A stretch of 64,000 nucleotides of DNA from Eledone cirrhosa (Eukaryota). The notes below the pieces were generated by a model. That model was not told where the DNA came from and did no database searches. It saw nothing but the letters and a program-made list of their open reading frames with translations. Shown one piece after another: positions 52,202 through 58,746 of this stretch. How positions within the stretch are numbered: position 1 is the stretch's first letter; each line of letters starts with the position of its first letter. Location of the stretch: positions 13,578,001-13,642,000 of the forward strand of contig OZ024753.1 in assembly GCA_964016885.1 (NCBI GenBank), in the 5' to 3' direction. Both the position numbers and the translations under genes were made by a program.

Positions 52202-52258
52202 ATTTTATCTGATGAGGGCGTAAACAACACAGTACCTCCGAAATATATATAATGAAAC
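52202..52258 (+). ncRNA. Type I hammerhead ribozyme candidate, family H copy 1
   Basis: ATTTTAT-CTGATGA-GGGCGTA..TACCTCC-GAAA-TATATAT-A-ATGAAA. Confidence 0.7.
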
Positions 52259-52325
52259 ATATTTTGATTAAGTGAATGTCTTCATTTATTAATATTTTGA
52301 ATAATATATATATAAATATATATAT

Positions 52326-52920
52326 TTAATATAGAAATGGCTTCTGCAGGACTAGAACTGTTTGTTTCATTCGGATGATTTCTCCCGAATGAAACAGTTC
52401 TAGTCCTGTAGAAGCCATTTCTATATTAAATATATATACTCTATGTATTGAGTACCTTATTTACTGTGGTTACCCCCGATTGAACCCGGGATAAACCTAT
52501 ATAATAAATATATATATAAAGTTTAATATAGAAACGGCGTCTACAGGACTAGAACTGTTTCATTCAAAAGAAATCATCAGGGTGTATCAACAAGAATCAT
52601 TCGATTTTATTTACAATTTTTACAAATGCTCAATATATAAATAACTTTATAAAAAATTATAAAAGTTATAGAAAAATAATAAAACTTTATATTCAGATAT
52701 CTATTGTACAAGTTACTGCATAATTATATGGTCATTTGTTTATAAGATATAGCTTTGTTTATAAGATATAGTTTGTTAGATATAGCTTTTTGATACACCC
52801 TGATGATTTCTCCTGAATGAAACAGCTCTAGTCCTGTAGAAGCCATTTCTATATGAAATATTTATACTCTATGTATTGAGTACCTCACTTACTGTGGTTA
52901 CCCCCGATTGAACCTGGGAT
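52326..52920. mobile_element. Two palindromic GGACTAGAAC-family elements (52326-52495, 52525-52920); further copies at 53280-53490 and 59080-59287
   Basis: Arms AATATAGAAATGGCTTCTACAGGACTAGAACTGTTTCATTC and reverse complement; CTGATGA-TTTC..GAAT-GAAAC core; shared one-sided tail. Confidence 0.82.
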
Positions 52921-53050
52921 AAACACGCACGCACGCACTCCACACTCACTTACACACACCACACTCACACTCACACACACACACACACTCTCTCTCTCTC
53001 TCATATATATATGTATATATATTAAAATGGATGTTCTTTTGATCAATTAC

Positions 53051-53103
53051 ATTTTATTATACATATTTCGGATGTACAACAGTACGTCCTCATCAGACAA
53101 AAT
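53051..53103 (-). ncRNA. Type I hammerhead ribozyme candidate, family H copy 2
   Basis: Minus strand ATTTTGT-CTGATGA-GGACGTAC-TGTT-GTACATCC-GAAA-TATGTAT-A-ATAAAAT. Confidence 0.78.
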
Positions 53104-53943
53104 ATAATGATACGTGACATACCCTGAAGGTATATATATAAATAAGTTAAGTATCGTAAATCAGGATCGAAACATATTTAAGAGCTTTTTATAAATGTTT
53201 TAACGGCTTGCTTCTCTTTCATTAATATTTTCGCTTATATATATATATATATATATATATATGAGAGAGAGAGAGAGATATGGCCTCTACGGGACTAGAA
53301 CTGTTTCATTCAAATCATCAGGAAAGATTTCTTTGTGATTTTTTTTTTTTTTTTTTTTTTTTTTTTTTTTTTAAAAATTGAAACGGTTCTAGTCCTGTAG
53401 AAGCCATTTCTATATTAAACTTGATGTTTACACTCTACTAATGTATTGATTACCTTACTAACTGTGGTCACCCCTAATTGAGCCCGGCACACGCACGCAC
53501 GCACGCACACACTTTTTCTCTCTCTCTTCTGATTCTGAGTGGTGGTGGGGGACAAATTCGATCAATTTAGTTGTAGTGATTAGTTTAGCTGTTATGAAAT
53601 ATCAACCAAGAGATATAAAAAAAACTTGGGTATGCGATAAACATAACATGTAGCGTATATAGAAATGGATGTTCTGATAGATTGCGGACAAAAATATAAT
53701 AATTGGAGAGGGACATGCCCCATCCACCCAGTTCCACTGCCCCTGCATATATATATATATATATATATATATATAGGAAAATGTATGACCCCGACGGCAG
53801 AGCTCAAGCCGTTTCGACGGCTATTTCTGGACTTTGCGTTATGGTCCATCTGCTTCCTTACCACACCTCCTTCGTTATATATATATATATATATATATAT
53901 ATGTATAAGAAGAAATTAAAAGATGGTTAAAAAAGTTCCATGT

Positions 53944-54011
53944 ATTTTATTATGCGCATTTCAAAAACAAATATCATCCTGGACGATATTTGCATTCTCA
54001 TCAGATAAAAT
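53944..54011 (-). ncRNA. Type I hammerhead ribozyme candidate, family H copy 3
   Basis: Minus strand ATTTTAT-CTGATGA-(35-nt hairpin)-GAAA-TGCGCAT-A-ATAAAAT; perfect 7-bp stem I, palindromic ATGCGCAT. Confidence 0.75.
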
Positions 54012-54174
54012 CGGGAGACTTGATATGATGCCTAAAAAAACACACTTGTGAACAAGGTAGTGTGTCGTCAACATATAAATAAATTTAAAAGGATATAGAG
54101 AGTGCTACTTATCCGATATTTGCATTGCTTTATTGTTCTACAATAAAACTCACCTCCTACATATATTTATATTA

Positions 54175-54340
54175 CTGTAAATGAGGTTGGTGTTAGGAAG
54201 GGCATCCAGCTGTAGAAATCAAGCCCAAATCAGTTCCTGTATGAGCAAATAATGGTCAGCCGACCAGACACTGCCCACAACAGGACAACCCGTCTAACCC
54301 ATGCTAGCATGGAAGAACGGACGTAAAACGATGATGATGA
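54175..54340 (+). mobile_element. SINE 3' half with RTE-type tail
   Basis: Matches reverse complement of 2830-3005. Confidence 0.75.
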
Positions 54341-55475: not shown

Positions 55476-56279
55476 TATATATATATATATATATACACAC
55501 ACACACACACACATACACTGGCTATCTGCTCAATACAAAGCTTGACCAGTCCAGTATACATCATACTCAGTTCTGGCATAAGATCTTATGTGGTTTTTAA
55601 GACCAGACGTGCTTTCAAAAAGTTGTCCACATAACTTGCATATTAGTTTTGGTGCAGTTTGGACTCCTCTCACTTGACTTTCTTTCCTCAAAACTTTCTA
55701 ATAATGCCTATTTTGAAAGGATACCTTATTTTTTAAGGCATAGATTACGATATTTATTTTTTAAATGCCATTTTCACTTTGGGAAATTTCAATTGTCTGT
55801 GGTGATCTTAAAACAAAGGAATAATGACCATTTACTAACTGTGATTACTTACGCTTAACTCAGGACACACACGCACATATAATCTCGACTGGCGCCAAGC
55901 GGTCGGGTTTATACTTATCTCTATACCCACTCTGCATTTCCCTATGCATTGAGTACTCCCGTGATTTGTTGTCTCTCTGGCTTCAGCACTGCAGACTCTT
56001 TCTTTTTCTCACTCTCTTTTTCTCTCTCTCTCTCTCTCTCTCTCTCTCTCTCTCTCTCTCTCTCTCTCTCTCTCTCTCTCTCTCTCTCTCTCTCTCTCTC
56101 TCTCTCTCTCTCTCTTTCTCTCTCTTTCTCTCTGTCTCTGTCTGTCTCTCTGTCTCTGTCTGTCTCTCTCTCTGTTTCTTTCTCTCTCTCTGTCTCTCTC
56201 TGTCTCTCTCTCTCGCAACAAGTACATGACTCCGTGGTCACTGGCCGTCGTAATGGACGTACTCAAATACATGTAAACA

Positions 56280-56590
56280 TTGCTGTCAAGTTTATATCAT
56301 TTCGAGACGGTTTAAGCTTGACCATAGGGCTTACATAGCTTTAAGTAATGTCATTGTATATACGTGCTCATACTTCACTCAATTAGAAACATCCTGTGAC
56401 GTCCGAGATGTTTGTGGAGGTGGGGAGCTGAGCTGCTTAACACGAAGTTCTTGTCATCGTTGGCGACTAACTTTACTGGGATATCTGGACATACTCCCGT
56501 TGAGGGTGCTTGGTTATTACAGCATCTTAGCCTCGCTGTCACTCTCGACAATGCTGCCGGTGTGTTGGCTTGCTTCAAAAATTATTCGAG
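56280..56590 (+). mobile_element. CRE-like non-LTR retrotransposon C-terminal (restriction-like endonuclease) remnant
   Basis: KFLSSLA...SG...EGAWLLQHLSLAVTLDNAAGVL resembles the FL.QRLS.AVQRGNAA.VL tail of CRE-clade elements. Confidence 0.55.
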
Positions 56591-57043
56591 GGAAATTCAA
56601 GCACTCCCTGTGGTGATTGAGTGTACAGATCTTCTCCCCACCTTTTCTTTTTCTGTCTTCTATAATAGAAGTTGAGGGCCGAAACTCTTGCTTCGAGGGG
56701 GTGGGGGGTGGGGTGTCTTCTCTAGCTCGCCTGAGAGGTTCTTACCACTACACACCATTTCTTTGTTGAAGATCAGTTTCATTCTGGCCATACATGGCTT
56801 ATCTGCTTGTCTGTCAGCCTGTCCAGTTTCGTTGAATATCTCTGGAATGCTCAGCCACTTAACTCGTTAAGGTTGTTTCCATTCCATAAATCGAACATCT
56901 GGAACACTCATTGTTGAAAGTGATGGATGCCCATTCTGTATACAAGTCTGTGGATGCTGGCATGGTTATGTGGTTAAGAAGTTCCCTTTGCAATCATGGG
57001 GTTTCAGGTTTGATCTCATTAAGTGATATCTTGAGGGAGGGAA

Positions 57044-57376
57044 ATCATCATCATGTTACGTCCGCTTTTCCCTGCTTGCAAGGGTGGGACGGGAACTGAT
57101 TCTGGCTTGATTTCTACAGCTGGATGCCCTTCCTAACACCAACCTCATTTACAGTGAGGGCTGGGTGCTTTTTTGCCGTGGCACCTACACGACCACTTTG
57201 CAGTGGAATGATAGGGACCCCAGTCCCTATCATCTCATTTCTACAGCTGAGTAAACTGGAGCAATGTGAAATAAAGTGTCTTGCTCAAGGAAACAACACA
57301 TCACCCGGTCTGAGAATTGAACTCACAACCTTTCGATTGCAAGCCCAATGCTCTAACCACTAAGCCTTGTGCCTCC
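57044..57376 (-). mobile_element. SINE family A, full length
   Basis: Reverse complement of 23092-23430. Confidence 0.88.
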
Positions 57377-57589
57377 ATGAATCCGAAATCGTTAATCCAA
57401 CTTACATAATATATATATATATATGTGTGTACAATTGAAGGTACCCATTTACGTGCACTATATCGAAGCAAATAACTATGTGTATACTCTGGGAGTTTAT
57501 TTAACATTACTTGTTGAGTACGCTGAGATGTTTTTTTTTATATACCAAGGTTAACACAAACTTTGAAATTGAAATTAGGTAGACAGCAA

Positions 57590-57770
57590 TTCGACAGATA
57601 AATATAGTGTCAGGTGTCTTGGTGTATCTTTATTTTGTTTTCGTTTGATTTAGTCTCTGATAGTCCGATAATATCCCAGTTTACTTTCTGAAGTTCATAC
57701 ATCATTGTCTCGAGAGAGTTGGTATTACGGTCATTGATGGTATGTGTGTTGTATGTGCAGATATTAAAAG
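57590..57770 (-). mobile_element. LINE APE endonuclease N-terminal fragment (RTE-like), not in the ORF track
   Basis: Minus reading FNICTYNTHTIND...YELQKVNWDIIGLSETK. Confidence 0.75.
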
Positions 57771-58682
57771 TCTATTCTTTTGTCTGGGTGTTTCTTCTAT
57801 TCGTATAAAACAAACCAGTCCGAGGTTGCTGGTGTGATCCCTTAGTTATAGCTGTCACATCAGTCTGGGGTTGCTGGTGTGCCTTCTTGTTCACTCTACA
57901 AGGTCCGGAGGTGGTCTCCTCTGTACAACGAATGTGTGAGGTGACTTTTTCATGTTAATTTTATTTATGAGCCTACTCTATCATGCTGGGTCGAGGCATG
58001 TTGGAAGAGAGCGTTTGTAAGGTAACGCAAAGACCAGTGTTTTTGAAGCCTTATTTTTGGGATCTGTATCCGTAATTTATTCACAAGATCAGCTGTTTCT
58101 GTCCCAGAATTAGAATTACATTAAAGATCACTTACACTATATAGTTCAATGAGTACAAAGTTCAGTTGATCTAACTGCTGAAATGTTCATCCTTAAAACT
58201 GACAGATCCATTTACTTAACTCTTGTCTGTGCAGATGCTTGTAACTATATATATATATATATATATATATATATATATGCAGAAGTTATATTTAATTTGT
58301 TGGGATTCCAATATTGAATATATATATATATATATATATATATATATATATATATATATATATATATATATATGTGGAAGCTTAGTAAAATCGAAGCTTT
58401 GGCTGTGGCCAAGCAAAGTCGACTTACAATAAGGAATGAGTAGCAAAGCACTCAATAAGGGTAGGTCCTTAGAGTAATAACATTACGTTTAGATAGCTTG
58501 ACAAATTGAAAATTGCGGCAGGTAAAACCCAACCATACAATACCAAACAATGAAAGAACTAATCAGGTTAAAAATGCAACCATTCTGGTTGGAATCTTCT
58601 GGATATCCAGGAGATTCCAACCAGAATGGTTGCATTTTTTAAGGGTATGTCAATATTTATTTATAAAACTAACCTATATTAT

Positions 58683-58746
58683 ATTTTATCTGATGAAAGC
58701 GCACTATAGTTTACCTTGGTGGCCCTTGAAATATGTATAATGAAAT
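58683..58746 (+). ncRNA. Type I hammerhead ribozyme candidate, family H copy 4
   Basis: ATTTTAT-CTGATGA-AAG..CAC...GTG..CTT-GAAA-TATGTAT-A-ATGAAAT. Confidence 0.65.

What the first reader, a model, noticed from the sequence alone, without database searches (positions are those of the whole stretch)
52202..58746. Family of complete minimal hammerhead ribozymes with covarying stem II, in short (TA)n-bounded units
Seen: four motifs (52202-52258 +, 53051-53103 -, 53944-54011 -, 58683-58746 +) share stem I (AUUUUAU/AURAAAU), an intact CUGAUGA and GAAA core, a palindromic or near-palindromic 8-nt stem III (ATATATAT, ATATGTAT, ATGCGCAT) and an AUA cleavage triplet. Stem II differs in sequence and length (20-35 nt) in every copy yet still folds as a hairpin. 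A short motif resembling AAAGCACTC lies upstream in each unit, and the rest of each unit is divergent and bounded by microsatellite. Known: minimal type I hammerheads with palindromic stem III occur in Penelope-like element termini and retrozymes and can cleave as dimers. Inference: structure conserved without sequence suggests selection on self-cleavage in a diverse, non-coding, microsatellite-associated retroelement family that may be uncharacterised in this lineage.
Basis: partly seen in the sequence, partly recalled or inferred. Interest (0 to 1): 0.8.

Follow-up and report, generated by a model that had tools for sequence, protein, structure and literature searches.

The report
Octopus hammerheads in Penelope-type element ends
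Four complete hammerhead (self-cutting RNA) motifs sit in short, highly repeated, non-coding units beside TA microsatellites; they are likely the ends or miniature derivatives of Penelope-like jumping genes in what is likely an octopus genome, a known pairing, here with an unusual conserved mismatch in one helix and untested cleavage.

Summary
Confirmed: four type I hammerhead motifs lie at the stated coordinates and cut sites (strict descriptor: 4 found, shuffle mean 0.01), and helix II covaries. Corrections: they are not 'minimal' hammerheads (helix III is 2 bp plus a palindromic tetraloop), and they are not one family. Laid reads show separate repeats, each at roughly 10^4-10^5 times single-copy depth and scarce in two other organisms. 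All four share a helix II of 3 bp, a 1x1 mismatch (5' C in the family letters), then a free extension; a fifth, unrelated helix II in reads fits too. The layout matches published Hydra-clade Penelope-like elements (PLEs), one of them from Octopus bimaculoides: hammerhead, an end about 40 nt after the cut, (TA)n targets, and a downstream RCUC-stem-UW-GAGYRC hairpin of which AAAGCACTC is one arm. No RT or GIY-YIG gene was found and no genome was held, so clade and autonomy are inferred. Cleavage is untested. The scan noted PLE hammerheads on other DNA (358 findings), none resembling these units. Verdict: new variant of a known kind; interest 0.3.

The parts
52127..52303 (+). Unit 1: 177-nt non-coding unit between two (TA)n runs
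   Evidence: bin depth 52,710 in run X1 against about 7 for single-copy contigs
52203..52257 (+). Hammerhead H1; core 52209-52215, domain II 52216-52239, helix III 52243-52250, predicted cut 3' of 52251
   Evidence: G52254 reads A in 88,985 of 89,200 depth, turning a U-G pair of helix I into U-A
52175..52183 (+). AAAGCACTC upstream of H1: resembles one arm of the terminal hairpin; orientation ambiguous, hairpin incomplete here
52283..52295 (+). 3'-end motif of unit 1 (CAT..TTAAT type), 32-44 nt after the cut
   Evidence: read; local alignment to unit 4
53022..53130 (-). Unit 2: about 110 nt between two (TA)n runs
   Evidence: bin depth 122,055 in X1 (the bin also holds a TA run and a neighbouring piece), 34 in X5
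53046..53108 (-). Hammerhead H2; 12-bp helix I, 20-nt domain II, predicted cut 3' of 53058
53908..54162 (-). Unit 3: 255-nt non-coding unit; 54162 is a shared boundary followed by TA in other copies
   Evidence: joint 54162 to TA run in 1,084 reads of X14 (table 5c)
53944..54011 (-). Hammerhead H3; 35-nt domain II, helix III AUGCGCAU, predicted cut 3' of 53951
   Evidence: 53994 reads as C at helix II position 4 in 112,111 of 112,491 depth
54100..54107 (-). TAGCACTC upstream of H3; hairpin arm only
58448..58475 (-).
   Evidence: 5 inner pairs
58570..58639 (.). Near-perfect 35-bp fold-back upstream of H4
58682..58747 (+). Hammerhead H4; 31-nt domain II, predicted cut 3' of 58739; helix I extendable to about 25 bp with bulges
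   Evidence: T58705 reads C in 434,548 of 436,341 depth, turning U-G into C-G
58773..58785 (+). 3'-end motif; many copies of this family stop here and continue into (TA)n
   Evidence: joint 58780 to TA run with TAATAT between, 3,575+19 reads at 71 starts in X14
58797..58818 (+). Terminal hairpin RCUC-stem-UU-GAGYRC, 58-79 nt after the cut
   Evidence: G58801 reads C in 168,950 of 169,374 depth, restoring the first inner pair
58819..58880 (+). Tail of unit 4; its last 26 nt recur inverted at 58281-58306
   Evidence: 96% over 26 nt

Best explanation
The four motifs are complete type I hammerhead folds at the 3' ends of four separate high-copy non-coding repeats, which are likely terminal pieces or miniature non-autonomous derivatives of (TA)n-targeting Penelope-like elements (most likely the Hydra clade) in a likely octopod genome, and which are predicted to self-cleave after AUA, probably as dimers or with protein help. 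Mechanism, step by step. Shown: intact cores, covarying helix II, high repeat depth, a common 3' end about 40 nt after the cut followed by (TA)n, no ORF. Inferred: a unit is transcribed from a tandem neighbour or by host read-through; the ribozyme trims the precursor (the active monomer fold is 4.4-7.5 kcal/mol above the minimum-energy fold, while the 8-nt palindromes can pair between two copies); the RT/GIY-YIG protein of an autonomous PLE elsewhere binds the terminal region (candidate signal: the RCUC..GAGYRC hairpin), nicks (TA)n DNA and starts reverse transcription at the UAAUAU end or at a second site further 3', which would give the optional tail seen in unit 4; early stops and template switches give 5'-shortened and fold-back copies. 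Selection on the RNA in each lineage would keep the core and the fold while helix II drifts.
For: Motifs and controls. Repeat nature: depth at family-specific helix II positions 112,491 (H3) and 436,341 (H4) in run X1 against 6.5-7.3 for near-identical single-copy contigs; the tool warns that this is no copy number, so I read it as order 10^4-10^5. The 5 majority-letter differences listed in or next to the hammerheads at paired or mismatch positions (52254, 53994, 54012, 58705, 58801) all keep or improve the fold; 58709 lies in a loop; the table shows 40 rows, 1,017 are not shown. A loose end before 58727 (14,742 reads, agreement 0.93) reads by eye as a fifth helix II: 3 pairs, C.C, 10 pairs, 3-nt loop. 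Depth falls 5' of H4: 436,341 at 58705, 187,309 in bin 58456-58682, 20,724 at 58424. Hydra clade: (TA)n targets in almost all families and canonical hammerheads near the 3' end; Hydra-1_Obim and Hydra-1_Ajap end about 37 and 46 nt after the cut in ATAT-like letters (read by eye), as unit 4 does. The hairpin: 12 matches in the window, 9 with >=2 inner pairs against a shuffle mean of 0.37, max 2 of 200; by eye clear in 3 of the 6 novel Hydra consensus sequences, looser in a fourth, absent in two. The same helix III/AUA layout occurs in a Drosophila willistoni PLE hammerhead. Other hammerheads in fold-back arrangement, the PLE signature, lie in the same window. Two RT start sites defining an optional tail, and protein-assisted cleavage, are shown for a lizard PLE. 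Host: the best named relative of the window's LINE protein is from Argonauta hians, 56% identity.
Against: No RT or GIY-YIG remnant was found: 0 of 37 ORFs (of 42 listed for 50.9-59.6 kb) matched such Pfam families and nine short motifs gave one hit, far from the units, at 21298. No genome was held, so no autonomous partner was seen. No unit is in tandem with a copy of itself, so dimer partners are not evident at this locus. The hairpin is not specific to Hydra: it is also in the 3' region of Naiad_Mmer, and it is absent from Hydra-1_Obim. It is complete near only one of the four units. Listed Hydra hammerheads mostly have 3-4 bp helix III and often an extra nucleotide after A9; these do not. 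G10.1-C11.1 holds in 2 of 4. AUA was the slowest of four triplets tested in a viroid hammerhead (abstract), and 8 of 9 Xenopus retrozyme dimers did not cleave in vitro. Rfam does not recognise the motifs.
Confidence: 0.78

Rival explanations
1. They are monomer offspring of classical non-LTR retrozymes: tandem arrays elsewhere are transcribed, cut by dimeric hammerheads into unit-length RNA, circularised and reinserted. This overlaps with the best explanation, since such retrozymes are themselves proposed to derive from PLE termini.
For: Short, AT-rich, non-coding units; helix III of 2 bp plus a palindromic tetraloop is the layout of canonical metazoan repeat hammerheads; monomer fractions of retrozyme families range from 0 to 1; unit 3 has a fixed boundary at both ends.
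Against: No tandem copy in the window; no head-to-tail joint of these units among the 15 joints shown (2,920 not shown); no conserved helix I internal loop with a short loop 2 for the canonical tertiary contact; falling 5' depth for unit 4.
Confidence: 0.12
2. The folds are real relics of PLE ends but no longer cleave; the motif serves only as a protein-binding or folding element, or rides along.
For: In the lizard PLE, hammerhead mutants inserted as well as wild type in vitro and no RNA-seq reads began or ended at the cut; weak helix III and AUA triplet; H1 domain II is barely stable.
Against: All 11 core nucleotides and the triplet are intact in 4 of 4 lineages that share little else; family letters improve pairing.
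Confidence: 0.08
3. Chance motifs in AT-rich, microsatellite-rich DNA.
For: Flanks are very AT-rich; similar sequence patterns gave chance hits inside prokaryotic or phage coding DNA (L001 in a glutamine-synthetase-like ORF; L002/L003).
Against: 4 observed against 0.01 expected; helix II pairing product about 2e-9 under base shuffles; high repeat depth and a fifth helix II.
Confidence: 0.01

Closest known systems
Hydra-clade Penelope-like elements, incl. Hydra-1_Obim of Octopus bimaculoides (Craig et al. 2021, PMC8557442; passages, section 11 and supplement parts 2, 23, 52, 53 read)
   Same: (TA)n targets; type I hammerhead near the 3' end; end about 40 nt after the cut; RCUC..GAGYRC hairpin next to the end in 3 of 6 novel consensus sequences; host group.
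   Different: No ORF seen here; two short strings typical of these units are absent from that supplement (0 hits each); helix III is 2 bp plus tetraloop rather than 3-4 bp; helix II is long with a fixed mismatch at position 4.
PLE hammerheads with small palindromic helix III, e.g. Drosophila willistoni and Aedes (Cervera and de la Pena 2014, PMC4209133; parts 1-2 of 4 of the text and supplement parts 1-2 of 3 read)
   Same: Type I topology, palindromic helix III suited to dimers, isolated copies from truncated PLEs, many divergent families per genome; D. willistoni has the same 8-nt palindrome plus AUA layout.
   Different: No extra nucleotide after A9, G10.1-C11.1 not fixed, helix I longer (6-12 bp), helix II up to 35 nt with a conserved 1x1 mismatch (D. 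virilis has a bulge in helix II instead).
Non-LTR retrozymes (Cervera and de la Pena 2020, PMC7229834, passages; Li, Clavereau and Pollet 2026, 10.64898/2026.07.22.740005, parts 1-3 of 5 read)
   Same: Short non-coding hammerhead repeats, proposed non-autonomous derivatives of PLE termini; monomers are common.
   Different: Defined by tandem arrays and circular RNA; neither is seen or testable here; canonical loop 1-loop 2 contact not evident.

Membership tests
Type I hammerhead ribozyme | Core CUGANGA and GAAA with an NUH triplet | tested here: met
   4 of 4 intact, triplet AUA
Type I hammerhead ribozyme | Three helices around the core, open ends in helix I | tested here: met
   55 of 56 cells of 14 named pairs are paired; 4 of 5 helix II pairs change on both sides
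Type I hammerhead ribozyme | Match to an Rfam hammerhead model | tested here: not met
   no hammerhead among 37 and 9 matches at E<=10 over the four motifs; lowers only the Rfam label
Type I hammerhead ribozyme | Self-cleavage at the NUH site | not testable with these tools
   needs in vitro assay; no RNA run listed
min-HHR of metazoan PLEs (Cervera 2014) | No helix III/loop 3 beyond the core pairs | tested here: not met
   helix III is 2 bp plus a 4-nt palindromic loop
min-HHR of metazoan PLEs (Cervera 2014) | Extra nucleotide between 9 and 10.1, and G10.1-C11.1 | tested here: not met
   no extra nucleotide in 4 of 4; G-C in 2 of 4
EN+ PLE, Hydra clade | Single ORF with RT (RWK, DKT) and C-terminal GIY-YIG lacking CCHH, CxCX5C linker | not testable with these tools
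   no ORF remnant near the units; no genome held
EN+ PLE, Hydra clade | Insertion into (TA)n | tested here: met
   TA runs beside units 1-3; family-wide joints to TA at 58780 and 54162
EN+ PLE, Hydra clade | Hammerhead close to the 3' end | tested here: met
   ends about 36-50 nt after the cut
EN+ PLE, Hydra clade | Partial tandems (pLTRs) and inverted 5'-truncated copies | tested here: inconclusive
   26-nt inverted end copy for unit 4 and fold-backs in neighbouring families; no tandem of units 1-4
Non-LTR retrozyme | Tandem array of >=2 hammerhead-bearing units | tested here: not met
   none in this window; rest of the genome not testable
Non-LTR retrozyme | Short non-coding unit | tested here: met
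   about 110-255 nt for units 1-3, no protein match
Non-LTR retrozyme | Expressed circular RNA | not testable with these tools
   no RNA holder listed

The most novel reading that the evidence does not exclude
This octopod lineage carries a recent burst of 10^4-10^5-copy miniature PLE derivatives defined by a new hammerhead subclass, in which a conserved C.N mismatch after three pairs of a long helix II replaces the usual loop 2 contact. With it travels an undescribed terminal hairpin (RCUC-stem-UW-GAGYRC) that is conserved from octopus to coral, sea cucumber and clam PLEs of two clades and is the recognition signal for the PLE RT/endonuclease.
Probability: 0.25. Interest if true: 0.55.

Novelty: new variant of a known kind. 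Interest (0 to 1): 0.3.

Why it matters
Hammerheads in PLE ends are known, also from Octopus, so the core finding is ordinary. What is useful: the role of PLE hammerheads is an open question (called unclear in PMC8557442; dispensable for insertion in vitro in PMC11167929). Young, very high-copy, non-coding families with an intact core give thousands of natural variants in which selection on cleavage can be measured. The helix II mismatch and the terminal hairpin are specific, cheap hypotheses about what a PLE RNA needs in cis. Rfam misses these motifs, so cephalopod ribozyme counts are probably too low.

Tried and rejected
Whole-genome search: no genome held. Rfam: no hammerhead in the whole window (150 of 161 matches shown) or over the motifs. 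My first descriptor was off by one position and missed H2 (corrected); the H4 rows were misparsed (corrected, which gives the values used). Pattern scans: metagenome contigs 0 then 1 hit, viral contigs 2 hits; L001 lies in a glutamine-synthetase-like ORF, L002 shows no helix I, L003 was not read; all score <=29.8 bits against 67-86 for the training motifs; taken as chance. Covariance model R1 found no further intact member in the window; best other hit 28318-28380 (-), E 0.022. Pfam on 37 of 42 ORFs: only a C2H2 zinc-finger fragment at 55533-55697. No RNA holder listed; this says nothing on expression. Lunse et al. on PLE hammerhead dimers could not be read; I saw only its title and a review's account, and it may already describe such variants. 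Repbase, Dfam and the Octopus vulgaris library of PMC13282606 (parts 1-2 of 3 read; 31 recently active PLE families) could not be searched, and the bioRxiv supplements are closed, so an exact match to a named family is not excluded. A direct alignment to published Hydra consensus sequences was not run; those comparisons are by eye. Considered and dropped: a splice donor in the AGGGTATG upstream of H2 and H4 (2 of 4 only); a twister reading of the neighbouring family's tail (no Rfam support). Claims of absence from print rest on 9 paper searches and a word search of PMC8557442 for hairpin/stem-loop (0 hits).

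
Full report
OBSERVATION. A type I descriptor finds these four and nothing else in 64 kb, against a mean of 0.01 in 300 dinucleotide shuffles. 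On the four-row alignment 55 of 56 cells of the 14 named pairs are paired and 4 of 5 helix II pairs change on both sides; 3 of 500 shuffles reach the covariation score, with the caveats of four rows and a structure read from them. Domain II is strong in H2 and H3 and weak in H1 and H4. Rfam does not recognise the motifs. They are not min-HHRs in the published sense: helix III has 2 pairs and a palindromic tetraloop, and there is no extra nucleotide after A9.

In all four, helix II is three pairs, a 1x1 mismatch (C.C, C.A, U.U, C.C), then a helix of free sequence and length. With 5 mismatches in 28 cells, a column shared by all four arises in 0.6% of permutations; I noticed this after the fact. 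Two independent supports come: the U at that position in H3 reads C in 112,111 of 112,491 depth, so the family letter is C in all four; and a loose end before 58727 (14,742 reads, agreement 0.93) reads by eye as an unrelated helix II with 3 pairs, C.C, 10 pairs and a 3-nt loop. Only 30 letters of it are shown, so its 5' core is not seen. I saw no such helix II among the 56 motifs of Fig. S3 of PMC4209133 or the Hydra/Chlamys table of PMC8557442, but those tables came from descriptors that favour regular stems, and Lunse et al. could not be read.

WHAT THE UNITS ARE. No genome was held, so I laid 4 of the 16 listed runs on 52100-58900 at 80% likeness. X1 holds the window's unique DNA almost exactly (1 difference in 853 nt) at depth about 7. 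Summed depth is 436,341 in helix II of H4, 112,491 in helix II of H3, 89,200 in the 3' arm of H1 (which may collect other families) and 122,055 over the bin of unit 2; a nearby tRNA-like repeat reaches 3.6 million. The tool warns that this is no copy number; I read it as order 10^4-10^5. The units match one another only at 71-75% over 67-111 nt, so they are separate families. Two other organisms that share the neighbouring repeats hold far less (X5: 19.9 at 58705, 0 at 53994; X6: 249 and 57), which suggests lineage-specific expansion. Many copies of the unit 4 family stop at 58780 and continue with TAATAT into (TA)n (3,594 reads), and depth falls 5' of H4 (187,309, then 20,724 at 58424), as 5' truncation or a composite unit would give. 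Unit 3 has a shared outer boundary at 54162 next to TA (1,084 reads), so it looks like a defined 255-nt non-coding unit. A CAT..TTAAT motif lies 26-46 nt after the cut in all four. No RT or GIY-YIG remnant was found. The host is likely an octopod: the best named relative of the LINE at 33.6-36.2 kb is from Argonauta hians; that the window's SINEs look octopus-like is my recollection, not a call.

THE AAAGCACTC MOTIF. It is one arm of a hairpin RCUC-stem-U(U/A)-GAGYRC that occurs 12 times in the window (9 with >=2 inner pairs; shuffle mean 0.37, max 2 of 200), in several unrelated short repeats. It is complete twice at unit 4: 58-79 nt after the cut in sense, where the family letter restores the first inner pair, and upstream in antisense. 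In units 1 and 3 only an arm is present and its orientation is ambiguous; in unit 2 it is doubtful. By eye the same hairpin is in published PLE ends: Hydra-2_Amil and Hydra-2_Ajap about 40-45 nt after the hammerhead, Hydra-1_Ajap at its 5' start, a looser form in Hydra-1_Crog, none in Hydra-1_Obim or (with inner stem) Hydra-1_Amil, and also in the 3' region of Naiad_Mmer (4 of 22 string hits, all four in terminal non-coding DNA). The paper's main text does not use the words hairpin or stem-loop. It ties the units to PLE termini but not to one clade.

MECHANISM. Shown: fold, repeat nature, TA-adjacent 3' end, lack of ORF. Inferred: these are terminal pieces or miniature derivatives of (TA)n-targeting PLEs. 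Hydra is the best guess (about 0.55-0.6 of the whole): that clade targets (TA)n, carries canonical hammerheads near its 3' end and is present in Octopus, whereas Naiads lack canonical hammerheads; Neptune-type elements remain possible. The active monomer fold lies 4.4-7.5 kcal/mol above the minimum-energy fold, a monomer helix III costs +4.7, and the palindromes self-pair at -2.2 to -10.5 kcal/mol, which fits dimer or protein-assisted cleavage as reported for other PLE hammerheads. The two end points of unit 4 resemble the two RT start sites and optional tail of the lizard PLE. Against: no tandem partner here, a slow AUA triplet, frequent failure of related dimers in vitro, and dispensability of the hammerhead in the one reconstituted PLE.

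CONTEXT. The window holds other hammerhead families: a relaxed scan gives 6 with exact core and 8 with one change, against shuffle means of 0.02 and 0.18, several in the fold-back arrangement typical of PLE insertions. The four motifs are one architecture in a nest of PLE-type ends.

NOVELTY AND VERDICT. PLE hammerheads, their within-genome diversity, their non-autonomous derivatives and an Octopus example are all in print. New, as far as my searches reach: these families, the conserved helix II mismatch, and the shared terminal hairpin. New variant of a known kind; interest 0.3; best explanation 0.78.

Noticed in passing
window 18529 (+), 28385 (+), 27544 (+) and 27527 (-): A second hammerhead architecture with long domain II that opens with unpaired bases, helix III ACC..GGU or AC..GU, and a shared 3' tail ending in TTATTACATAA; the 27.4-27.6 kb copy is a fold-back and carries the terminal hairpin at 27398-27420 (-).
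   Followed up: partly
window 27132-27282; 55245 (-) with its inverted copy near 55322 (+): Hammerheads with U.U closing domain II, like the listed Hydra-clade motifs, in perfect fold-backs; the 27.2 kb pair has a U4 to A change in the core.
   Followed up: partly
window 52800 (+), 59152 (+), 52580 (-), 53321 (-), 52332-52423: A high-copy family interleaved with units 1-3, with CUGAUGA, a weak domain II and a possible 4-bp helix III, followed by the terminal hairpin and a conserved GC-rich tail; the tail recalls a twister 3' half from memory, without Rfam support. Abundant in organism B too.
   Followed up: partly
window 28318-28380 (-): Possible decayed relative of H1-H4, back to back with the hammerhead at 28385: perfect 7-bp helix I, damaged GAAA, no helix II (E 0.022).
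   Followed up: partly
window 49397 (+) and 60582 (-) within the fold-back 60450-60806: A classical minimal PLE hammerhead (extra A after A9, ACGU palindrome) with no clear helix I, and a degenerate one in a 180-bp inverted repeat.
   Followed up: no
window 42302-42499, 49476-49590, 27745-27885, 53776-53878: Another short (TA)n-flanked family holding the terminal hairpin and what looks like the 3' half of a hammerhead with a long helix III and GUC triplet.
   Followed up: no
window 54112-54124 and 53984-53996 (-): In unit 3 a 13-nt stretch of the 5' arm of helix II recurs about 130 nt upstream and could compete for the 3' arm, a possible folding switch (read).
   Followed up: no
window 33600-36200 (-): Frameshifted LINE with AP endonuclease and RT; best named relative from Argonauta hians.
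   Followed up: partly
window 55533-55697 (-): C2H2 zinc-finger fragment below Pfam's cut-off.
   Followed up: no
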